From NCBI RefSeq assembly GCF_001677475.2, contig NZ_CP015229.1: DNA of 64,000 bases. The stretch is one strand, 5' to 3'. The translations under genes were made by a program, and so were the position numbers. Below the pieces are notes generated by a model. It was not told the origin of the DNA. It searched no databases and was given only the letters and a program-made list of their open reading frames with translations. Of this stretch, positions 18,754 to 31,560 are shown piece by piece (position 1 is the first letter of the stretch; the number at the start of each line of letters is the position of its first letter). The stretch comes from Escherichia coli. GTDB taxonomy: Bacteria; Pseudomonadota; Gammaproteobacteria; Enterobacterales; Enterobacteriaceae.

Positions 18754-18764
18754 AAGTCGTTCCC

Positions 18765-20168
18765 TCAGGAAGGAAATGCGAGTGATTTCACCGTCACCGG
18801 CACAACCGATCCGCCAAAAAGAGGCGTACCAATGTCGATATAGTCCCCCGCGCGGACAATCACTTCGTCAATGACTGCCAACGGGAGTTGTTGTAGCTGT
18901 GGGCGCAATAACATGCCCAGAGCTTTACCAAAGTCCTGCCCGGCCACCACCAGCAGGGGATGCGGATTCGGAAAACGCGCGACGAAATCGACCAGCGCGT
19001 TGATGACCGTCAGTACCGCGGCGTAACGCACAGGCAGCGAGGCGGGAAGCGCCAGCACGTACGCGTCAGTTTTGGGATCAAGATCCAGCTGAATCAGCGC
19101 CTGTTGCCAGGCACTCACCAGATCCGTTTCATCAATCGGGATCGCCACCGGCAAATTGCGCAGCGGCAGTTGTACGCCCTCCAGCCAGATTGTGCTGCCA
19201 GAGAGCGAAAGGGTATGTGCACCCGCGCCAATCACCGTGGCGCGTACGGTTTGCGCCGGAAACTGCACATTCATCTCACGCAGGCGCGGATGGTCATGCA
19301 GCGCCGTTGCCAGAAGTGGGCCAATATCGGCAAAACAGAACGGGTCGGCGGGCTGGTGGCGATAACATTCGCCCACGCCGCCAGAAAGCGTAATGATTTC
19401 GGGCGTAACACCTGTGGGCAGCAAACCGGTTTGCATCAATGCCTGCGCGAGCGGCGAGAGCGTTCCGTCAATCACTTCGACAATCAGTTCTGCCATCCGC
19501 CGGGTAACCTGCACCAGCTGCGCGCCGGTCAGCGAACGGACGTCAGTGCCTGCACCGAAGCACTCATCCACAATCATCTGCCCCGGTTTATGAGCGTAAA
19601 CCACGCGCCCCTGGCTGTCGGTTTCCAGCAGGCGACCACCGACGTTGAGGCAGGCAGTGCCGCTGATTTTTCCGGCATCGAACAGGGCGTAGTTCGCGGT
19701 GCCACCGCCGATGTCGATATTCAGTACCCGACACAGCCGTTGTTCAGAAAGGGTTTGCGCCCCGGCACCGTGACCAGCGATTACGGATTCGAGGTGCGGC
19801 CCGGCGCTGGCGACGACAAAATCGCCCAGCGACTGAGAGAGCGCCATCACCGCCAGGCGAGCATTGCGGGTTTTCGCGCTTTCACCGGTGATGATGATGG
19901 CACCAGAATCAACGCTTTCCGGCGCAATTCCCGCTGCCTGATATTGCTCTAAAATCAGCGATTTCAGTTCCGCTTCTTTTAAACCACCCTGTTTATCGAC
20001 AGGGGTAAAGAACACCGGGCTTTGCCAGCTAATTTCGCGTTTGATGAATTCGTAGCGCGGCACCTGCGACACCGCCGCACGGTTAACCAGCTCCAGGTGG
20101 GAGAAAATCACCTGGGTGGTGGTGGTGCCGATATCGATACCGACGCTCAGTAGCTGGCGAGTGTTCAC
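18765..20168 (-). CDS. eutA: Ethanolamine ammonia-lyase reactivating factor
   Basis: 467 aa matching EutA; ends 11 bp upstream of the eutB start. Confidence 0.95.
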   Translation of the reverse strand: MNTRQLLSVGIDIGTTTTQVIFSHLELVNRAAVSQVPRYEFIKREISWQSPVFFTPVDKQGGLKEAELKSLILEQYQAAGIAPESVDSGAIIITGESAKTRNARLAVMALSQSLGDFVVASAGPHLESVIAGHGAGAQTLSEQRLCRVLNIDIGGGTANYALFDAGKISGTACLNVGGRLLETDSQGRVVYAHKPGQMIVDECFGAGTDVRSLTGAQLVQVTRRMAELIVEVIDGTLSPLAQALMQTGLLPTGVTPEIITLSGGVGECYRHQPADPFCFADIGPLLATALHDHPRLREMNVQFPAQTVRATVIGAGAHTLSLSGSTIWLEGVQLPLRNLPVAIPIDETDLVSAWQQALIQLDLDPKTDAYVLALPASLPVRYAAVLTVINALVDFVARFPNPHPLLVVAGQDFGKALGMLLRPQLQQLPLAVIDEVIVRAGDYIDIGTPLFGGSVVPVTVKSLAFPS

Positions 20169-21391: not shown

Positions 21392-21421
21392 CGCCTTTAC
21401 TCCCTGTTAGTTGTTATTTAT

Positions 21422-21506
<85 letters not shown>

Positions 21507-21507
21507 T

Positions 21508-22695
21508 TTATTGCGCCGCTGCGTACAGACCGACAATCTGTTCCAGGCTGGCGGTACGCGGGTTGCTGCGCAGACAAATATCTTCCTGCGCGGCCTGCGC
21601 CCATGCGCCGTAATGTCCGGTGGTTGCACCCACGTCTGCCAGCCGCTTGTTGATCCCGACTTCCGCAATCAGCTCACTTACCGCGTTAATAGCGTCACGA
21701 TCGTCGGATTTTTTAGTTCGCAGCGCCCGACCAATCTGACTAAACCGATCACGACAAACCATCCGGTTAAATTCCATCACCGTTGGCAGCAACATGGCGT
21801 TCGCCAGACCGTGTGGAATATGCAGCGCCGCCCCTGGCTGATGCGCCATCGCGTGGCACAACCCAAGTCCGGCACTGGAAAACGCCATTCCCGCCATACA
21901 TGAAGCCAGCAACATGCTCTCGCGCGCGGCAAGGTCATGACCGTAGCCCACCGCTTTCGGCAGTGATTTGCCAATCATCGCAATGGCACCAATCGCCAGA
22001 CTGTCGGTAAACGGTGTGGCGTTCAGCGCGCTGTACGCTTCAATGGCATGGGTTAACGCATCAATGCCAGTCATCGCCGTGACATGCGACGGCACACCTT
22101 CGGTCAATGCGGCGTCGAGGATCGCCACATCCGGCATCAGCGAGGCATGGGCTAACACCTGCTTGCGCCCGCTCACCGCGTCAATAATCACCGTTACGTT
22201 GGTGGTTTCAGAGCCGGTTCCGGCGGTCGTTGGAATGGCAATCAGCGGCAAGCGCGGTTGCAGAACGCTGGTTTCTGACATCTCTGCCAGCGTGCTATCC
22301 GGGTTCGTCACCAGCAACGCCACGGCTTTTGCTGCATCCAGCACCGAGCCGCCGCCAAACGCGATCAACCCATCACAGCCTGATTCACGCAACTGCGCCA
22401 CGGCTGCACACACGTCGGTGATGCACGGTTCGCCCACCGGACATGGCCAGAGCGTCATGGCGATACCTTTAACGGCCAGGCTGCGCGTCAGCCCGGCGGT
22501 CATCCCTGCCTGATGCAAAAAGCTGTCTGCCATCACGAACAGATGTTTCAGCCCACGCGTTTGCGCTTGCTGCCCGCAACTGCTCACCGCGCCCGGACCG
22601 CAAAGCGTCACCGGTGGAACGCTAAATGTTTTTACCCGTTGCAGATTCAGGGTATCGAACGCCTGAAAGAGCGCGGTCTGCAATTCATTTTGCAT
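21508..22695 (-). CDS. eutG: Iron-containing alcohol dehydrogenase
   Basis: 395 aa matching EutG. Confidence 0.94.
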   Translation of the reverse strand: MQNELQTALFQAFDTLNLQRVKTFSVPPVTLCGPGAVSSCGQQAQTRGLKHLFVMADSFLHQAGMTAGLTRSLAVKGIAMTLWPCPVGEPCITDVCAAVAQLRESGCDGLIAFGGGSVLDAAKAVALLVTNPDSTLAEMSETSVLQPRLPLIAIPTTAGTGSETTNVTVIIDAVSGRKQVLAHASLMPDVAILDAALTEGVPSHVTAMTGIDALTHAIEAYSALNATPFTDSLAIGAIAMIGKSLPKAVGYGHDLAARESMLLASCMAGMAFSSAGLGLCHAMAHQPGAALHIPHGLANAMLLPTVMEFNRMVCRDRFSQIGRALRTKKSDDRDAINAVSELIAEVGINKRLADVGATTGHYGAWAQAAQEDICLRSNPRTASLEQIVGLYAAAQ

Positions 22696-23531: not shown

Positions 23532-24935
23532 TTAAACAATGCGAAACGCATCGACTAATACACAGCGACGCAGACGGACAAACGTCCGCGCGCTGGTTAC
23601 CCCTTCACCGGTTGGCGTGGTGATGGTCATGGTGGTCCAGCCTTCCCCGCCCAGCCCCAGCCCGGCAATACACGGTCCGTTCTTAACGAAAATGCTGGTA
23701 TCAATGGCATTCGCCATCTGGTTCATGTTCTCGATATTGCGCGAGTGCATTGCCGCCGTGTGGTGGCAACCGCCTTCCAGTTTCACCGCCAGCGCAATGG
23801 CATCCGCCACGTTGGCGACGCGCACGACGGGCAGCACCGGCATCATCAGTTCAGTCACAGCAAACGGATGTTCTGCGGTGGTTTCTACAAACAGCAGTCG
23901 CGTTTGTTCCGGAACTTTAAGGCCGATTGCCGCCGCGATTTTCGCCGCATCGCGACCAACCCAGTCACGGCTGACGGTGCCTTTTCCGCGCTCGTCGATA
24001 TTTTTCAGCAACACCGGTTGCAGCTGCTGCGCCTGCTCTGCGGTCAGTTTCACCGCGTGCTGGCCTTCCATCAGACGCATCAGTTCATCGGCTACGCTAT
24101 CCACAACAATCAGTACCTTTTCGTCGGCACAAATGATGTTGTTATCGAAAGACGCGCCTTTGACGATGGACTGAGCAGCACGGGCGAGGTCAGCGGTTTC
24201 ATCCACCACTACCGGCGGGTTGCCAGCGCCTGCGGCAATCAGACGTTTATTGGTGTGTTTACGCGCCGCTTCTACTACCGCTTCGCCGCCGGTCACCACC
24301 AGAAGGCCGATGCCCGGAAACTTGAACAAACGTTGCGCGGTTTCGATATCCGGATTGGCCACGGTCACCAGTAAGTTTTCCGGCCCGCCTGCAGCAACAA
24401 TTGCCCGGTTGAGCAGCGTAATCGCTCGCTGAGAGACTTTTTTCGCCGCCGGATGCGGGGCAAAAATGACGCTGTTGCCCGCAGCAATCAGGCTGATGGC
24501 GTTATTAATAACGGTCGCCGCCGGGTTAGTGGACGGCGTTACCGAAGCCACCACGCCCCAGGGCGCGTTTTCAATTAGGGTCAGGCCGTTGTCGCCGGTC
24601 AGCACCTGCGGAGAGAGGCACTCAACGCCTGGTGTGCCGCGCGCCTGAGCGACGTTTTTGGCAAATTTATCTTCGACGCGCCCCATGCCGGTTTCACTGA
24701 CGGCAAGTTCCGCTAAATCTCTGGCGTGTTTTTCGCCTGCTTCACGAATGGCAACAATGGCTAACTGGCGCATTGCCACGCTCTTTAACCCTTGCTGGGC
24801 AATTTTGGCTGCCGCAACGGCGTCATCCAGGGACGCGAAAACGCCCATCTCATGAACGGCGGCGGGCGGCGTATCACTGCTTTGCATTTTCAGCAGTACC
24901 GCTTTCACCACCTGTTCAATATCCTGTTGATTCAT
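23532..24935 (-). CDS. eutE: CoA-acylating acetaldehyde dehydrogenase
   Basis: 467 aa aldehyde dehydrogenase-family protein matching EutE. Confidence 0.95.
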   Translation of the reverse strand: MNQQDIEQVVKAVLLKMQSSDTPPAAVHEMGVFASLDDAVAAAKIAQQGLKSVAMRQLAIVAIREAGEKHARDLAELAVSETGMGRVEDKFAKNVAQARGTPGVECLSPQVLTGDNGLTLIENAPWGVVASVTPSTNPAATVINNAISLIAAGNSVIFAPHPAAKKVSQRAITLLNRAIVAAGGPENLLVTVANPDIETAQRLFKFPGIGLLVVTGGEAVVEAARKHTNKRLIAAGAGNPPVVVDETADLARAAQSIVKGASFDNNIICADEKVLIVVDSVADELMRLMEGQHAVKLTAEQAQQLQPVLLKNIDERGKGTVSRDWVGRDAAKIAAAIGLKVPEQTRLLFVETTAEHPFAVTELMMPVLPVVRVANVADAIALAVKLEGGCHHTAAMHSRNIENMNQMANAIDTSIFVKNGPCIAGLGLGGEGWTTMTITTPTGEGVTSARTFVRLRRCVLVDAFRIV

Positions 24936-24946
24936 GATGTTCTGCC

Positions 24947-25234
24947 TTATTTGTGGAAAATTACCTGACCGCCAGACACCACCTCATCGACGATGCCAAT
25001 CACGCACAGATCGACCGGTGACGTTTCGCTTTTATGCGCCTGGCGGGCGGAACTGCCACTCACCAGCAACACCCACTCCCCGGTTCCCGCGCCAATATTG
25101 TCGATGGCGACGGCACATTGCCCGTCAGGATTACCTTGTGGATCAATCATTTCCACCATCAGCAATTTGTCATGCGCCAGTCCGTGATGGCGTACGGTAC
25201 AAACAATTTGTCCAGTGACGACTGCCAGTTTCAT
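24947..25234 (-). CDS. eutN: Microcompartment vertex protein (EutN/CcmL family)
   Basis: 95 aa matching EutN. Confidence 0.93.
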   Translation of the reverse strand: MKLAVVTGQIVCTVRHHGLAHDKLLMVEMIDPQGNPDGQCAVAIDNIGAGTGEWVLLVSGSSARQAHKSETSPVDLCVIGIVDEVVSGGQVIFHK

Positions 25235-25340
25235 ACCCGCCTCCGTGGCGTATTTCAGGTAAAAGCTCCCCCTACCCTCCGCGGAAGGTAAAATGAAAAA
25301 TGAGAGAGCGTGACGCCCGAATCGACGTCACACAGGGTGA

Positions 25341-25634
25341 TTACAGGTTGCTGCTATCGCCTTTCAGGCCGATCGGGAAAACTTCTTCCAGGTCGCCGTG
25401 CGGGCGCGGGATAACATGTACAGATACCAGCTCGCCGATACGCTGTGCCGCTGCGGCACCGGCATCGGTCGCCGCTTTACAGGCTGCAACATCACCACGA
25501 ACCATAGCAGTACACAGGCCGCCGCCAATCTGCTTAACACCAACCAGTTTGACGCGCGCAGCTTTCACCATCGCGTCAGAAGCCTCAATCAGTGCAACCA
25601 GGCCCCGGGTTTCGATCATTCCTAATGCTTCCAT
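25341..25634 (-). CDS. eutM: Major microcompartment shell protein (BMC domain)
   Basis: 97 aa from [26 protein letters not shown]; canonical BMC hexamer sequence. Confidence 0.93.
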
Positions 25635-25672
25635 TGTGCTTTCCTCTTTATCAGGGTCCAGAACGGGACCGT

Positions 25673-26689
25673 TCATTCAACCAGTGTTTGTAAACTGCTT
25701 TCGCGGTTCACTTCTGTCTGACGCGGCACAGCTGCCACCAGCGCCAGCTCGATAATTTCCTGCACGCTACAACCACGAGAGAGATCGTGCATCGGCGCGG
25801 CAAGTCCTTGTATCAATGGCCCGACGGCACGATATCCGCCGAGTCGTTGTGCGATTTTGTAGCCAATATTTCCGGCTTCCAGCGACGGAAAAACCATCAC
25901 ATTGGCCTTGCCTTGTAGCGGGCTGGCAGGCGCTTTTTGCGCCGCCACTTCCGGCACGAAGGCGGCGTCAAACTGCAACTCGCCATCGACTACCAACTGC
26001 GGCGCGCGCTCACGGACGATTTCTGTCGCCTGCTGGACGTTGGCAACGCAGGGGTGACGGGCGCTGCCGTTACTGGAAAACGACAACATCGCCACGCGCG
26101 GCTCTTCTCCGGTGATGGCGCGCCAGGTTTCGGCGCTGGCAAGCGCGATATCCGCCAACTGCGCCGCCGTCGGCTGTGGCACTACGCTGCAATCGGCAAA
26201 GCCCAATGCGGGGCCACTGTACTGTGGCAGCATCAGGAAAATGGAGGAGAGCGTTTTACAGCCTGGCTGTAAGCCAATAATGCGTAATCCGGCACGCAGC
26301 ACATTCGCCGTGGAAGAGAGATTGCCCGCGATACAGACATCCGCTGTCCCGGCGCTGACCATTGCGGCAGCGAACATCAGCGGATCGGTGAGTTTTTCCA
26401 GCGCATCCGGCGGCGTTTTTTCGCCCGCGCGGGCCAGCCAGCGATGAGCAAATTCTTCCCGCATTGCGAGGTTGCCATGCGGATCAATCACCTGTAGCCC
26501 GTCCATCGCCACGCCATGACTGAGCGCAAACTGACGAAGTTCAAACGGATTGGCGACCAGAATGGGCGTTGCCAGACCTTGTTGATGTAAATATTGCGCA
26601 GCTTTCAGCACACGTTGATCTAACGCATCCGGAAAAACTACTCTGGCGGGCGCTCGCAACGCCAGTTCACGACAACGTTCAATAATCAT
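25673..26689 (-). CDS. eutD: Phosphotransacetylase
   Basis: 338 aa Pta-like protein matching EutD. Confidence 0.94.
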
Positions 26690-27489
26690 TGCGTTTCCCC
26701 CAGTCGTTGTTGGATCTGCTTCACCGTTAGCGGCTGCTTCGTTACGCTCAGGATCATCATCACGTAGACCGTGCTCGAAAGGCGGTTCAGTGCCTGCAAG
26801 ATGTCCGGGCGTAATACTTCAAAACTGCGGGTTATAAACACCTGCGCCGCTACGGTTTCGGTTTCCCGCACTTTGGTGCGTAGCAGATTGAGCAACGCAG
26901 CATCGCGCCCGTGGCTGGCTTCCGGCACCAGATGATCGTGGTCGAGATAGCGCAGCGGCTGGTGAGAAAGCCGATGCAGATCTTCGTCAGAAAGCCCGAC
27001 AATCGCTTGTTCGCCCAGCGGTTCCCCCAGCGCATCGGCGCGCATAATGTTGCCAAGACGCGAGCGGATGTCCGCCAGCCACGGCTGCCACGGTTCTGCC
27101 AGTTCAATTTGCAGCCACACTGCCAGCGCAATGGTGCTGTCGAGAACCGCGCGAAAACCCAGGCGCGGATCGCTTTTGGCGACCATTTTTTCCGCCGACA
27201 GGTGAGTCAGCGTATCCGGCTTTTTTGCCACCGGCTGGCGGCACAGTTCGCAGCACGCCTGCGGATGTTCATCGCTACTGGTCAGCCCGTGAACGGGCTG
27301 TGGCTGCTGCTGTTCATCGTCAACAAACAGGCGGCCCTGCTCGTCAATAAACTTGATGCGCAGATGGCGGCTTTCCAGTAACTCCCGGGCAGAGGGCGTC
27401 AGGCGACTGTGCGCAGGGAGATGGATCTCTGCGCCTTCGCTGAGCGTATGGTTCGCTCGTAGCCATGCTTCGGTGATGAAATCTTTCAT
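26686..27489 (-). CDS. eutT: Corrinoid adenosyltransferase
   Basis: 267 aa matching EutT; 4-nt overlap with eutD. Confidence 0.93.
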
Positions 27490-28187
27490 AGGGATTGCCA
27501 GTTAGCCGGCCAGGCGACATACAGGAATTTCACGCTGGATGTCGTGCCAAATTCGATGCTGGAGCCTTTCGGGATAAACATCACGTCGCCTGCTTTGGCG
27601 ATCATGGTTTCGCCTTCGTGGCGAACATGCAGTTCCCCTTCCAGCACCATGTCGATTTCGTCGTAGTTCAGGGTCCATGGGAAGAAGGCGTTCTCCCACT
27701 GCATAAAACCGGCGGCCATGCTACTGCCGTCATCTCCGGTGACCAGATCCGTTAATCCGACGCAGTGTGGCTGTGCGCCGTCGAAACGACCAAACTTGAC
27801 GCTGCTGCCATCAATCACTTTGATGCCGCCTTTGCCGGTCACCGATTTGAAGCTCGGCTGCATTGCCCCCTGCTCCAGCGACTGTTTTTCCTTCATCACT
27901 TTTTCCATCAGCTGCGCGACCAGGCTTTCGGTAAACTGGCCTTCCGGCAACTGGGCAATGATGGTTTCGCGGATGCGCTGGCTTTCGGTTTTATCGGCTG
28001 GCGCGCTGGCGGGAACAGACGCCGTTACCGGAGTCGATTCATCGCATTCGGTGATGGTAAAACCCAGTAGTTCCGCCACTTCACGGGCTTCCGGAGTAAT
28101 AATGCTGGCACGTAGAACCACGGACATTGCCTGTTCGCCGCGCGCGTGTGCTTCACGAATATCATTCGCTGTGATGAGTTTTTTCAC
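27486..28187 (-). CDS. eutQ: Cupin-fold protein EutQ
   Basis: 233 aa matching EutQ; 4-nt overlap with eutT. Confidence 0.93.
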   Translation of the reverse strand: MKKLITANDIREAHARGEQAMSVVLRASIITPEAREVAELLGFTITECDESTPVTASVPASAPADKTESQRIRETIIAQLPEGQFTESLVAQLMEKVMKEKQSLEQGAMQPSFKSVTGKGGIKVIDGSSVKFGRFDGAQPHCVGLTDLVTGDDGSSMAAGFMQWENAFFPWTLNYDEIDMVLEGELHVRHEGETMIAKAGDVMFIPKGSSIEFGTTSSVKFLYVAWPANWQSL

Positions 28188-28641
28188 CTGCTTCCTCCTG
28201 TTTGGTGAGAGATGCCAGATAATCCACCAGTTGCTGCACGCTTTGCGGGTCGTGGCTGTTTAGCTCGAAAATCGGCTCTTCGAAGCCAGTCTCAAGCAAT
28301 AACTTTCGCGTTGCGGCGACGTCAGCATCTGGCATGTCCGTTTTACTGATGACGGCGATTTGCCGTTTGCTGACGCCAATATCCAGCAACCCGGCAGGCA
28401 ACCGACTTTCCGGGTCATTCGCGTCGTGGACATAGATCAGCATGTCCACATCCTGTAGCGTGGTAATTAAGGCGTGATACCAGCGGGGATGGCTAAAATA
28501 TTCACCTGGCGTATCAATATCACCCTTATTATTAAATTCCACAGCCTGCGTTTTTCGCGCGAGGGTATAATCCCCTTGCAACGCATTAAATAACGTTGTC
28601 TTTCCTGCTCCGACAGCACCCACAAACGCAATTCGTTTCAT
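28162..28641 (-). CDS. eutP: P-loop NTPase EutP
   Basis: 159 aa with Walker A GAVGAGKTT; matches EutP; 26-nt overlap with eutQ. Confidence 0.93.
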   Translation of the reverse strand: MKRIAFVGAVGAGKTTLFNALQGDYTLARKTQAVEFNNKGDIDTPGEYFSHPRWYHALITTLQDVDMLIYVHDANDPESRLPAGLLDIGVSKRQIAVISKTDMPDADVAATRKLLLETGFEEPIFELNSHDPQSVQQLVDYLASLTKQEEAGEKTHHSE

Positions 28642-28653
28642 GAATGCCTCGCA

Positions 28654-28989
28654 TTAACTTTTGGTCATTTCACAAAGCGTATAATTTAATAAGCGACCTA
28701 AACCACTGACAGTTTGTGATAACGCTTCTTCTACTGCACCCACCGAGCCATAAATCACCAGCGCGCCGCTAAAACGGTCGAGAAATCCGATATGCACATC
28801 GGCGGCTTTCAGCGCTAAATCACCGGCGATCATCGCCGTTTCGCCGGGAGTTAGCGTCATAATGCCGATTGCACCCGCATCCGGAACGCCGATTTTCTTC
28901 GCCAGTTCCTCGCCGGGATGCGCGATGAGATGCGCCAGTGTGACCTGTTTGCCGGGCACAAATTCTTGAATGATGCGTTCTTTATCCAT
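28654..28989 (-). CDS. eutS: Microcompartment shell protein EutS (permuted BMC domain)
   Basis: 111 aa from [15 protein letters not shown]; matches EutS; first gene of the operon. Confidence 0.9.
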
Positions 28990-29150
28990 GAGTCGCCGCC
29001 TGTGAAAAACTTGCGTGTATCGTGACAATTTTTCGTCAGAGTAAATAACAAAATTCGGCAAGCGCGTTTAAAAGGTGAGGTAGATCACTAAGAATGGAGA
29101 GATATTTACTGTTATGAATAAACTTTCATATGCGACGCATGAATATAAAT
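28990..29150 (-). promoter_or_regulatory. Main eut operon promoter region upstream of eutS
   Basis: AT-rich region directly upstream of the first operon gene; assignment from known eut operon organisation, sites not mapped. Confidence 0.35.
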
Positions 29151-29238
29151 AAAATAATATCGAGATATTTTATATACTGATTTTTTTATTATTCGCAAAC
29201 TCAGTAATAAGCTTTACTAATATATTGCAGCTAAACTG

Positions 29239-29262
29239 CTTACCCTGAATATTCAGGGTAAG
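29239..29262. other. Perfect 24-bp palindrome between the maeB stop and the eut promoter region
   Basis: cttaccctgaa-ta-ttcagggtaag is exactly self-complementary; no U-run follows on either strand. Confidence 0.5.
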
Positions 29263-29280
29263 CGTGAGAGTTAAAAAAAA

Positions 29281-31560
29281 TTACAACGGTTGGGTTTGCG
29301 CTTCAACCACGGCCAGCGCCACCATGTTGACGATACGACGCACCGATGCGATCGGCGTTAACACGTGAACCGGTTTCGCCACGCCCATCAGCACCGGACC
29401 GACAGTCACACCTTCCGAGCTGGAAACGCGCAGTAAGTTGTAACTAATGCGGGCAGCTTCCATGTTTGGCATTACCAGAATATTGGCGGAACCTTTCAAA
29501 GGGCTGTCCGGCATACGGTCATTGCGAATCGCTTCCACCAGCGCTGCATCGCCGTGCATTTCACCATCAATCATCAGTTCTGGCGCTCGTTCCCTGACCA
29601 GTTCCAGCGCCTGACGCATTTTGCTCGACGACGGGCAGTCAGAAGAACCAAAGTTGGAGTGCGACAACAAAGCAACACGCGGCTCAATACCAAAACGACG
29701 GACAGTTTCTGCCGCCATCAAGGTGATCTCCGCCAGCTCTTCTGCGTCTGGTTCGTCATTGACGTATGTATCGGCAATAAAGGTGTTACCACTCGGCAGC
29801 AGCAGCGCGTTCATGGCACCTGCGGTGTGAACGCCATCGCGATAACCAAAGACATTTTTTACCACGCTAAAGTGTTCATGGTAATCACCCACCGTACCGC
29901 AAATCATTGCATCGGCTTCGCCACGCTGAACCATGATCGCGCCGATCACTGTCGGGTTACTGATCAGCGCACGCTGCGCCTGCTCCTGGGTGACACCACG
30001 ACGCTTCATGATCTGGAAGTATTCGGTCCAGTACTCTTTAAAGCGCGGATCGGATTCGTTATTGACGATCTCAAAATCAACACCCGCTTTGATCTGCAAG
30101 CCCAGTTTCTGAATGCGCATTTCGATCACGTTCGGACGACCGATAAGGATCGGTTTCGCCAGTCCCAGCGTTACCAGTTCCTGAGTGGCATGCAGAACGC
30201 GCGCCTCTTCCCCTTCCGGCAGAACAACGCGCTTCGGCGCTTTGCGAGCCTGGGAGAAAATCGGCTTCATAAACAGGTTGGTTTTGTAAACGAACTCAGT
30301 CAGCTTGTCGATGTAGACGTCGAAATCAGCAATCGGACGCGTCGCCACGCCCGACTCCATCGCCGCTTTCGCGACCGCAGGAGCGATCTTAACGATCAAG
30401 CGCGGATCAAACGGTTTTGGAATGATGTATTCCGGACCAAAGCTCAGATCCTGATCGCCATAAGCTGAAGCCACCACTTCACTCTGTTCCGCATGGGCCA
30501 GTTCTGCAATCGCGCGTACTGCCGCCAGTTTCATCTCTTCGTTGATGGCGGTTGCGCCAACGTCCAGCGCGCCACGGAAGATGAACGGGAAGCAAAGAAC
30601 GTTGTTCACCTGGTTCGGGTAGTCGGAACGGCCGGTACAGATGATGGCATCCGGACGCACTTCTTTCGCCAGCGGCGGCAGAATTTCCGGTTCCGGGTTC
30701 GCCAGCGCCAGGATCATTGGCGCACGGGCCATTTTCTTCACCATTTCCTGGGTCAGCACTTTCGGGCCGGAACAGCCGAGGAAAATATCCGCGCCTTCAA
30801 TCACATCATCGAGGGTACGTTTGCCGTCATCCACTACCGCATATGCGGCTTTGGTTTCCGCCATGTTTGGCTCACGGCCCTGATAGATAACACCTTTTGA
30901 ATCGCAAACCACGATGTTATGTTTTTGCAGCCCCAGCGCCACCAGCAGGTTCATACAAGCGATTGCTGCGGCACCCGCGCCGGAAACCACCATCCGCACG
31001 TCGGAGATGTTTTTCTCCACCACGCGCAAGCCGTTGAGGATGGCGGCAGTGCTGATGATTGCCGTGCCGTGCTGATCGTCGTGGAATACCGGAATATTCA
31101 TCCGCTCGCGCAGTTTCTGTTCAATATAGAAACATTCTGGCGCTTTAATGTCTTCGAGGTTGATTCCGCCGAAGGTCGGTTCGAGCGCAGCGACAACTTC
31201 AATAAATTTGTCCGGGTCGAGTTCATCAACTTCAATGTCAAATACATCAATCCCGGCGAATTTCTTAAACAGAACGCCCTTGCCTTCCATCACCGGTTTG
31301 CCTGCCAGCGCTCCAATGTTGCCTAACCCCAGCACCGCCGTACCGTTAGAGATCACCGCCACCAGGTTACCGCGCGCGGTATATTTGTAGGCTTTTAGCG
31401 GGTCTTTTTCGATTTCAAGACAAGGTGCGGCAACGCCTGGTGAGTAGGCCAGCGCCAGATCGCGCTGCGTTGCCAGAGGCTTGGTTGGAGAAACCTGGAT
31501 TTTCCCTGGAACTGGAAATTCATGGAAATCAAGTGCACTTTGTTTTAACTGGTCATCCAT
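29281..31560 (-). CDS. maeB: NADP-dependent malic enzyme (malic enzyme domain plus PTA-like C-terminal domain)
   Basis: 759 aa matching MaeB. Confidence 0.96.

What the first reader, a model, noticed from the sequence alone, without database searches (positions are those of the whole stretch)
28162..28187. 26-nt overlap between eutP and eutQ, with 4-nt ATGA overlaps elsewhere in the eut operon
eutA/eutH, eutD/eutT and eutT/eutQ overlap by 4 nt, eutJ/eutG by 11 nt and eutP/eutQ by 26 nt. This indicates tight translational coupling of the accessory enzyme genes, in contrast to the spaced shell genes eutM and eutN.
Basis: seen in the sequence. Interest (0 to 1): 0.15.

Follow-up and report, generated by a model that had tools for sequence, protein, structure and literature searches.

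The report
Known eutP–eutQ gene overlap
The 26-base overlap between eutP and eutQ is real, but it is already annotated and mentioned in the literature, and it looks like a harmless by-product of a shifted eutP stop codon, not a device that ties the two proteins' production together.

Summary
On the minus strand, eutP (28641..28162) and eutQ (28187..27486, GTG start) share 26 nt. eutQ/eutT and eutT/eutD share ATGA, eutH/eutA shares GTGA (not ATGA), and eutJ/eutG share 11 nt. No shell-gene junction overlaps. K-12 and RefSeq annotations show the same junctions, and a 2025 Salmonella paper states the eutP/eutQ overlap.

The eutQ start is secure. It has an AGGAGG 6 nt upstream, the MKKLITANDIR N-terminus is kept at that position in 51 species, and it matches the curated model end to end.

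The overlap length is not conserved: 26 nt (Escherichia, Yokenella, Entomohabitans), 23 nt (Salmonella, Citrobacter, Klebsiella), 4 nt ATGA (Pseudomonas, Xenophilus, Buttiauxella), or a 4–15 nt gap (Morganella, Serratia and others). Substitutions in the overlap are silent in eutQ (1067:88) and always change EutP (0:756). The EutP tail lies outside its domain.

"Tight coupling" is only partly supported. The -4 junctions are the classic coupling geometry. Published reporter data find no coupling at about -25 nt, and published proteomics give EutQ about 14 times the abundance of EutP. Most likely eutQ initiates on its own strong ribosome-binding site. The finding is ordinary and already known.

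The parts
28162..28641 (-). eutP CDS (159 aa, EutP/PduV-family small GTPase-like protein annotated as acetate kinase). The stop codon TGA is at 28164..28162.
   Evidence: The Pfam PduV-EutP domain covers residues 1-143 only. NCBIfam equivalog NF012011 matches 1-159/159.
27486..28187 (-). eutQ CDS (233 aa). The start is GTG at 28187..28185. It has an N-terminal helical region and a C-terminal cupin domain.
   Evidence: Pfam EutQ covers 85-232. NCBIfam equivalog NF012001 matches 1-233/233. The same start position is used in 51 species.
28162..28187 (-). The 26-nt eutP/eutQ overlap. eutQ codons 1-9 (V/M-K-K-L-I-T-A-N-D) are read in eutP's frame as (G)EKTHHSE-stop.
   Evidence: In 31 species with a 23/26-nt overlap, pairwise codon differences are 1067 synonymous to 88 nonsynonymous in the eutQ frame, and 0 to 756 in the eutP frame.
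28194..28199 (-). The eutQ Shine-Dalgarno sequence AGGAGG, 6 nt upstream of the GTG. It is encoded by the Q-E-E codons (CAG GAG GAA) of the EutP tail.
   Evidence: The computed SD/anti-SD duplex energy is -10.3 kcal/mol in K-12, the third most negative of the 17 eut genes, after eutL (-12.2).
28179..28184 (-). An A6 run inside the overlap (GTG AAA AAA CTC). Loss of one A would fuse the eutP and eutQ frames.
   Evidence: An A5 variant occurs in one draft assembly but in none of 5409 complete E. coli records.
28125..28127 (-). The next in-frame ATG of eutQ (Met21). This is the only start that would remove the overlap, and it is rejected.
   Evidence: Residues 1-20 are conserved at protein level with synonymous DNA change across 51 species.
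27486..27489 (-). The eutQ/eutT ATGA stop-start overlap.
   Evidence: It is -4 in Escherichia, Salmonella and Klebsiella, and a +4 to +12 gap in Citrobacter, Buttiauxella, Morganella and Pseudomonas.
26686..26689 (-). The eutT/eutD ATGA stop-start overlap.
   Evidence: The overlap is -4 or -11 in all 46 loci where both genes could be placed. The -1 values projected for the six Pseudomonas/Xenophilus loci come from alignments that begin at residue 2, and the independent gene call for Pseudomonas gives -4.
22685..22695 (-). The eutJ/eutG 11-nt overlap (ATGCAAAATGA).
   Evidence: It is the same in Salmonella and Morganella, and +1 in Pseudomonas.
20165..20168 (-). The eutH/eutA GTGA stop-start overlap (not ATGA).
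   Evidence: It is -4 in Salmonella and Morganella, and +10 in Pseudomonas.
25341..25634 (-). eutM (97 aa, BMC shell protein). It starts 38 nt after eutD and is followed by a 106-nt gap before eutN.
24947..25234 (-). eutN (95 aa, pentameric vertex shell protein).

Best explanation
The 26-nt eutP/eutQ overlap is a genuine but functionally passive overlap in an ordinary EUT1-type ethanolamine-utilisation operon.

The eutQ start codon and its Shine-Dalgarno sequence sit inside the unconstrained C-terminal tail of eutP. Pseudomonas, Xenophilus and Buttiauxella have a canonical ATGA stop-start junction, with 8 nt between the GAGGA(A/C) motif and the start codon. The Escherichia/Salmonella/Citrobacter/Klebsiella group has 7 or 4 nt there. 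That puts eutP in the other frame, skips the TGA, and lets eutP run on for 7-8 codons to the first stop that happens to lie in that frame (TAA in GCT-AAC, or TGA in AAT-GAT).

Selection acts on the EutQ N-terminus, which is reported to bind the shell. The EutP tail is simply whatever the other frame spells.

In this configuration eutQ is translated mainly by independent initiation at its own strong AGGAGG site. Ribosomes finishing eutP contribute little, which fits EutQ being about 14-fold more abundant than EutP.

Shown: coordinates, start-site conservation, variable overlap length, and the substitution pattern. Taken from the literature: protein abundances, the dependence of coupling on spacing, and the EutQ N-terminal function. 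Inferred: the direction of evolution and the independence of eutQ initiation.
For: - Coordinates and identical reference annotation.
- Full-length equivalog matches.
- The eutQ start is at the same position in 51 species and is preceded by a Shine-Dalgarno-like sequence. The overlap is 26, 23 or 4 nt, or a gap of 4-15 nt, depending on genus.
- The spacing from GAGGA(A/C) to the start codon is 8 nt in ATGA species and 7 or 4 nt in long-overlap species.
- Substitutions in the overlap are 1067 synonymous to 88 nonsynonymous in the eutQ frame, and 0 to 756 in the eutP frame.
- The EutP domain ends at residue 143-144 of 159.
- Long-overlap species have stronger Shine-Dalgarno pairing (mean -10.2 and -11.3 kcal/mol) than -4 species (-7.7) or gap species (-6.5).
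- EutQ = 100 against EutP = 7 +/- 1 by iBAQ in E. coli: PMC11334477.
- No coupling was observed at -25 nt spacing in reporter work, as reviewed in PMC12548453.
- There is no unusual RNA structure at the junction (z = 0.42).
- There is no promoter-like site in 27400-29400.
Against: - No direct measurement of eutQ translation with and without eutP translation exists in what I could read.
- Protein abundance also reflects stability and mRNA level, so the 14:1 ratio does not by itself prove independent initiation.
- Shine-Dalgarno strength does not predict abundance across the 12 quantified Eut proteins (Spearman rho -0.06).
- The polarity of the evolutionary change (ATGA ancestral) is a parsimony argument without a gene tree, and eut loci can move horizontally.
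- The difference in Shine-Dalgarno strength between overlap classes is not corrected for phylogeny.
- Phage fr shows that reinitiation can occur across a 34-nt overlap (cited in PMC10666635).
Confidence: 0.7

Rival explanations
1. The overlap mediates positive translational coupling. Ribosomes terminating eutP at 28162 move back about 23 nt and reinitiate at the eutQ GTG, as proposed for the phage fr coat/lysis pair. Alternatively, they keep the eutQ ribosome-binding site unfolded.
For: - The genes are co-directional and overlapping.
- A 23-26-nt overlap is kept in 31 species loci.
- The fr precedent with a 34-nt overlap is cited in PMC10666635.
- A Shine-Dalgarno sequence is known to aid reinitiation (PMC12548453).
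Against: - Reporter series show coupling falling with increasing overlap, with none observed at -25 nt.
- EutQ is about 14 times more abundant than EutP, so at most a small part of EutQ could come from reinitiation.
- There is no stable structure to unfold (z = 0.42).
- The overlap is absent or only 4 nt in other genera that have the same proteins.
Confidence: 0.12
2. The overlap causes negative interference. Ribosomes reading the last nine eutP codons cover the eutQ Shine-Dalgarno sequence and start codon, so eutP translation transiently blocks eutQ initiation and the overlap tunes the ratio downward.
For: - The geometry allows it. The eutQ ribosome-binding site (28185..28199) lies wholly inside the eutP coding sequence, within one ribosome footprint of the eutP stop.
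Against: - EutP is made at a low level and EutQ is the most abundant Eut protein, so any occlusion is quantitatively minor.
- The same occlusion applies to any -4 junction.
Confidence: 0.08
3. The overlap is an annotation artefact. eutQ really starts at a downstream codon (Met21, 28127..28125), leaving a 34-nt gap.
For: - GTG is a rarer start codon.
- By my background knowledge, long overlaps in annotations are often mis-called starts.
Against: - There is a perfect AGGAGG 6 nt upstream of the GTG.
- Residues 1-20 are conserved as protein, with synonymous DNA change, in 51 species. In 20 of them the same position is an ATG.
- The full-length equivalog matches 1-233/233.
- The EutQ N-terminal helices H1/H2 are reported to be functional in Salmonella.
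Confidence: 0.02
4. The EutQ excess over EutP arises at the RNA level, through an internal promoter or differential mRNA stability. In that case coupling at the overlap could still be tight per transcript.
For: - Abundance data alone cannot separate transcription from translation.
- Shine-Dalgarno strength does not track abundance across the operon.
Against: - No sigma-70-like site was found in 27400..29400, against 2.4 expected in shuffles, though this is a crude scan.
- There is no Rfam element in the window.
- A transcript starting inside eutP would itself make eutQ translation independent of eutP.
Confidence: 0.08

Closest known systems
eutP/eutQ junction of the Salmonella enterica and E. 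coli K-12 eut operons (EUT1 locus)
   Same: The gene order is the same (eutSPQTDMNEJGHABCLKR). The GTG start, AGGAGG Shine-Dalgarno sequence and EutQ N-terminus are the same. K-12 has the identical 26-nt overlap. [quoted passage not shown]
   Different: There is nothing of substance. This window is 97.1% identical to the best-matching E. coli genome over 6.7 kb around eutQ and lacks the K-12 CPZ-55 prophage between eutA and eutB. Compared with Escherichia, Salmonella has 3 more nt between the Shine-Dalgarno sequence and the start, and uses a TAA stop one codon earlier.
Canonical -4 (NTGA) termination-reinitiation gene pairs, e.g. trpB/trpA
   Same: eutQ/eutT, eutT/eutD and eutH/eutA have exactly this geometry. 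eutP/eutQ has it in Pseudomonas, Xenophilus and Buttiauxella.
   Different: The flagged junction in this window is -26, outside the -4 to +3 range where coupling is efficient. Its products are not equimolar, and I found no report that they form a heteromeric complex.
Long-overlap coupled pairs of RNA phages (fr coat/lysis 34 nt; MS2 coat/lysis about 50 nt)
   Same: They also have a co-directional overlap of tens of nucleotides, with the downstream start upstream of the upstream stop.
   Different: As I understand those systems, the phage lysis genes lack an efficient ribosome-binding site of their own and depend on coat termination or unfolding of structure. eutQ has a perfect Shine-Dalgarno sequence and no unusual local structure, and it is made in large excess over the upstream product.

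Membership tests
EUT1-type ethanolamine utilisation operon | The genes eutS-P-Q-T-D-M-N-E-J-G-H-A-B occur in this order on one strand. | tested here: met
   The ORF map matches the RefSeq and K-12 annotations. Pfam and NCBIfam matches are reported.
EUT1-type ethanolamine utilisation operon | EutP and EutQ are full-length orthologues of the characterised proteins. | tested here: met
   NF012011 matches 1-159/159 (346 bits, cut-off 258). NF012001 matches 1-233/233 (501 bits, cut-off 193).
Termination-reinitiation coupled gene pair | The stop and start codons overlap (-4 or -1) or are within a few nucleotides. | tested here: not met
   The eutP/eutQ spacing is -26. The feature is met for eutQ/eutT, eutT/eutD (ATGA) and eutH/eutA (GTGA).
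Termination-reinitiation coupled gene pair | Translation of the downstream gene depends on translation of the upstream gene. | not testable with these tools
   This needs reporter fusions with upstream stop or start mutations. I found no such experiment for eut genes.
Termination-reinitiation coupled gene pair | The products are made in near-fixed, roughly equimolar ratio, often as subunits of one complex. | tested here: not met
   Published iBAQ values are EutQ 100 and EutP 7 +/- 1 (PMC11334477). EutQ is encapsulated and EutP is cytosolic (PMC12487888).
RNA-unfolding coupled pair (phage MS2 type) | A stable secondary structure sequesters the downstream ribosome-binding site. | tested here: not met
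   For the 131-nt junction the MFE is -29.9 kcal/mol against a shuffle mean of -31.3, giving z = +0.42.
Mis-annotated start (artefactual overlap) | There is no Shine-Dalgarno sequence at the annotated start, and the N-terminal extension is not conserved as protein. | tested here: not met
   AGGAGG lies 6 nt upstream, and residues 1-20 are conserved in 51 species with synonymous variation. The overlap is therefore not an artefact.
Programmed frameshift or slippage fusion (EutP-EutQ) | There is a conserved slippery site and recurrent, conserved fusion products. | tested here: not met
   The A6 run varies (AAG AAA in 6 of 31 species). The 384-aa database fusions arise from scattered frameshifts in eutP. 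The A5 allele is absent from 5409 complete E. coli records.

The most novel reading that the evidence does not exclude
The 23-26-nt overlap marks a lineage-specific uncoupling event. In the ancestor of Escherichia, Salmonella, Citrobacter and Klebsiella, a 1-nt loss between the Shine-Dalgarno sequence and the start codon destroyed an ancestral ATGA (coupling-competent) eutP/eutQ junction. Together with a stronger AGGAGG site, this freed eutQ to be translated far above eutP, matching EutQ's role as the abundant shell-cargo linker. If so, species that retain ATGA (Pseudomonas, Buttiauxella) should make EutP and EutQ in a much closer ratio.
Probability: 0.3. Interest if true: 0.25.

Novelty: already known. 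Interest (0 to 1): 0.07.

Why it matters
It matters little. The overlap is practically relevant for anyone making eutP or eutQ deletions or refactoring the operon. A clean eutP deletion must keep the last 40 or so nucleotides of eutP, which hold the eutQ Shine-Dalgarno sequence and start, and an N-terminal eutQ deletion must keep codons 1-9, as the Salmonella authors did. The comparison also gives a tidy example of a longer overlap arising passively from a stop-codon shift, and shows that overlap length alone is not evidence of coupling. It opens no long-standing question.

Tried and rejected
- **RNA structure at the junction.** It is no more stable than shuffled sequence, so there is no basis for an unfolding switch.
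- **Rfam scan of the whole window.** No hits.
- **Promoter and terminator scan of 27400-29400.** No promoter-like site was found. Two weak terminator-like hits are at chance level.
- **Shine-Dalgarno pairing energy against published abundance for 12 Eut proteins.** There is no correlation (rho -0.06), so Shine-Dalgarno strength alone cannot be offered as the general determinant of Eut stoichiometry.
- **EutP-EutQ fusion proteins in the protein database.**
  - The 384/386/396-aa entries come from different frameshifts inside eutP that enter the eutQ frame, which is open upstream of the GTG. Most are single-sequence clusters from read or metagenome assemblies, though one cluster (P0013) has 180 member sequences.
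  - I treat them as errors or pseudogenes, not a conserved fusion.
- **Slippage at the A6 run.** An A5 allele exists in a draft assembly but in none of 5409 complete E. coli records. It is rejected as a programmed event.
- **Papers not held.** I could not read the original Salmonella operon paper or the EutQ/EutP acetate-kinase paper. What I say about acetate-kinase activity comes second-hand from PMC11334477 and PMC12487888.
- **Weak NCBIfam hit of EutQ residues 6-92 to a EutA model.** Direct BLASTP of the window's EutQ against EutA shows nothing, so I treat it as a model artefact.

Full report
**What is there.** The window carries a complete EUT1-type ethanolamine-utilisation operon on the minus strand.

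| Gene | Coordinates | Note |
|---|---|---|
| eutP | 28641..28162 | 159 aa, stop TGA at 28164..28162 |
| eutQ | 28187..27486 | 233 aa, start GTG at 28187..28185 |

The two genes share 28162..28187, which is 26 nt. eutQ codon starts lie 1 nt downstream of eutP codon starts.

The junctions along the operon are as follows (the eutM start is).

| Junction | Spacing (nt) |
|---|---|
| eutS-eutP | +12 |
| eutP/eutQ | -26 |
| eutQ/eutT | -4 (ATGA) |
| eutT/eutD | -4 (ATGA) |
| eutD-eutM | +38 |
| eutM-eutN | +106 |
| eutN-eutE | +11 |
| eutE-eutJ | +10 |
| eutJ/eutG | -11 |
| eutG-eutH | +116 |
| eutH/eutA | -4 (GTGA) |
| eutA-eutB | +11 |

There are two slips. The eutH/eutA tetranucleotide is GTGA, not ATGA. 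The refutation test should name a downstream start for eutQ, not eutP.

Pfam and NCBIfam confirm the gene identities. All eight proteins tested exceed the curated cut-off of an NCBIfam model. EutP, EutQ, EutT, EutG, EutH and EutA match their equivalog end to end, EutJ nearly so (2-271 of 278), and EutD best matches the phosphotransacetylase subfamily model (3-322 of 338).

**Already annotated and in print.** RefSeq/PGAP annotation of the best-matching E. coli genome has the same junctions. So does the K-12 MG1655 reference, with eutP at 2574978-2575457 and eutQ at 2574302-2575003. The junction sequence is present in 5408 of 5426 complete E. coli genomes. [quoted passage not shown]

**Is the eutQ start right?** Yes, on four grounds.
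- A perfect AGGAGG (28199..28194) lies 6 nt upstream of the GTG.
- I collected one locus per species for 55 species. In 51 usable loci, from Escherichia to Pseudomonas and Xenophilus, the EutQ protein begins at the homologous position with M/V-K-K-L-I-T-A-N-D-I-R and is preceded by a Shine-Dalgarno-like sequence. The start is ATG in 20 loci and GTG in 31.
- Residues 1-49 contain 14 invariant positions.
- The only alternative, Met21 (28127..28125), would discard this conserved segment. Salmonella experiments assign the N-terminal helices H1/H2 to shell binding.

The overlap is therefore not an annotation artefact.

**The overlap length is not conserved**.

| eutP/eutQ junction | Taxa |
|---|---|
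| 26-nt overlap | Escherichia, Yokenella, Entomohabitans |
| 23-nt overlap | Salmonella, Citrobacter, Klebsiella, Pseudocitrobacter, a Pluralibacter MAG |
| 4-nt ATGA overlap | Pseudomonas, Xenophilus, Buttiauxella |
| Gap of 4-15 nt | Morganella, Serratia, Pluralibacter gergoviae, Intestinirhabdus |

The eutQ start never moves; only the eutP stop does. In ATGA species there are 8 nt between the GAGGA(A/C) motif and the start codon. In long-overlap species there are 7 nt (Salmonella type) or 4 nt (Escherichia type). This puts eutP in the other frame, so the TGA is no longer read. eutP then ends at the first stop in that frame, which is TAA formed by GCT-AAC or TGA formed by AAT-GAT of eutQ. 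The Escherichia 26 against the Salmonella 23 is just a synonymous GCT to GCG change in eutQ Ala7.

**Which frame is under selection?** I compared the 31 species with a 23/26-nt overlap over the shared nucleotides. Pairwise codon differences are 1067 synonymous to 88 nonsynonymous in the eutQ frame. They are 0 synonymous to 756 nonsynonymous in the eutP frame.
- The EutP tail reads ...GEKTHHSE, GEKTYHS, GEETNHS or DENVSHRE, depending on species.
- The tail lies beyond the PduV-EutP domain, which ends at residue 143-144.
- The tail is therefore an unconstrained read-out of eutQ's codons.
- The Q-E-E residues just upstream are the Shine-Dalgarno sequence (CAG GAG GAA).

**Does the overlap indicate tight coupling?** Not for this junction.
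- The review PMC12548453 summarises that coupling is most efficient at -4 to +3 nt. Increasing overlap reduces it more than increasing spacing does, and a systematic series saw no coupling at -25 nt.
- PMC10666635 shows steep distance dependence for native E. coli pairs.
- Label-free proteomics of E. coli W3110 grown on ethanolamine plus B12 gives EutQ = 100 (the most abundant Eut protein), EutP = 7 +/- 1, EutD = 10 and EutG = 7 (PMC11334477). EutQ cannot be made chiefly by ribosomes that have just finished eutP.
- The junction RNA folds no better than shuffles (z = 0.42).
- I found no promoter-like site and no Rfam element.
- Species with the long overlap have stronger Shine-Dalgarno pairing (-10.2 and -11.3 kcal/mol) than ATGA species (-7.7) or gap species (-6.5). 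This comparison is not phylogenetically corrected.

The most economical reading is independent initiation at a strong site embedded in a dispensable tail. Two caveats apply. Abundance is not synthesis rate. Shine-Dalgarno energy does not predict abundance across the 12 quantified Eut proteins (rho -0.06).

**The other junctions.** I compared independent gene calls for Salmonella, Pseudomonas and Morganella and 46-51 species loci.
- eutT/eutD overlaps everywhere both genes could be placed, by 4 or 11 nt.
- eutJ/eutG (-11) and eutH/eutA (-4) hold within Enterobacterales but are +1 and +10 in Pseudomonas.
- eutQ/eutT is -4 only in Escherichia, Salmonella, Klebsiella and close relatives.
- In this operon that is 0 of 7 shell junctions against 5 of 9 others (Fisher one-sided p = 0.029, a post hoc test).

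The -4 pairs have the right geometry for termination-reinitiation, but nobody has tested them as far as I could find.

**Verdict.** The feature is real and ordinary. It is already present in reference annotation and noted in the literature. The coupling interpretation is plausible for the -4 pairs and poorly supported for the 26-nt overlap itself.

**Limits.** I could not read the original Salmonella operon paper or the EutP/EutQ kinase paper. No ribosome profiling of induced eut operons was available. The evolutionary polarity rests on parsimony only.

Noticed in passing
window 27340..27489 (EutT N-terminus) and 28038..28187 (EutQ N-terminus), minus strand: The first 45 or so residues of EutQ and EutT share a motif, I-T-x4-R...L...(I/L)-T-P-x-A-R-E. 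BLASTP gives 35% identity over 51 aa, E = 8e-5. A profile-profile comparison gives E = 3e-4 at probability 40%. In EutQ this region (H1/H2) is reported to bind the shell, so EutT might carry a related shell-binding module. The Salmonella paper I read does not mention this.
   Followed up: partly
window 28179..28184 (A6 run in the overlap); locus L061 1533..1540: Protein databases hold EutP-EutQ fusion ORFs of 384-396 aa, caused by various frameshifts in eutP that enter the eutQ frame, which is open upstream of its GTG. One draft E. coli assembly has A5 instead of A6, which fuses the frames exactly. None of 5409 complete E. coli records has the A5 allele.
   Followed up: yes
window 25235..25340, minus strand (eutM-eutN spacer): The 106-nt spacer folds into two hairpins. 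The first (GUGACGUC...GGCGUCAC) lies just after the eutM stop and is followed by a U-rich stretch (z = -1.84). The spacer is not conserved between genera: Salmonella carries a REP-like palindrome there and Morganella a different hairpin. It may bear on the published 96:1 EutM:EutN ratio.
   Followed up: partly
window 21392..21507, minus strand (eutG-eutH spacer): There are two strong palindromes of REP type (GCCGGAUG...UAUCCGGC and GGCGGAU...AUCCGCC), z = -2.36. The spacer is 116 nt here, 216 nt in K-12, 316 nt in another E. coli and about 45 nt in Salmonella, Pseudomonas and Morganella. The number of repeat units therefore varies between strains.
   Followed up: partly
window 18754..18764 (eutA-eutB junction): eutA and eutB are adjacent with an 11-nt gap, so this genome lacks the CPZ-55 cryptic prophage that splits the K-12 operon at this point.
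   Followed up: yes
window 24486..31187 and 29281..31560: The window is E. coli-like but somewhat divergent. Its best identity to any of 5426 complete E. coli genomes is 96.9% over eutP-eutQ and 98.5% over maeB. Over 6.7 kb it is 97.1% identical to an E. coli locus, against 93-94% for cryptic-clade Escherichia species. E. coli itself carries two EutQ length forms (229 and 233 aa) that differ in the linker.
   Followed up: partly
window 27489..28187 (EutQ protein residues 6-92): There is a weak NCBIfam hit of the EutQ N-terminal region to a EutA equivalog model (NF007991, positions 2-88, E = 4.7e-9, far below its cut-off). Direct comparison of the window's EutQ and EutA shows no similarity. It is probably a quirk of that model's seed and remains unexplained.
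   Followed up: partly
window 25635..25676, minus strand: The longest ORF for eutM (111 aa) would start at an ATGA overlap with eutD. The accepted 97-aa EutM starts 38 nt downstream of the eutD stop, behind AAAGAGGAA. A purely ORF-based reading would wrongly add a sixth overlap that involves a shell gene.
   Followed up: yes
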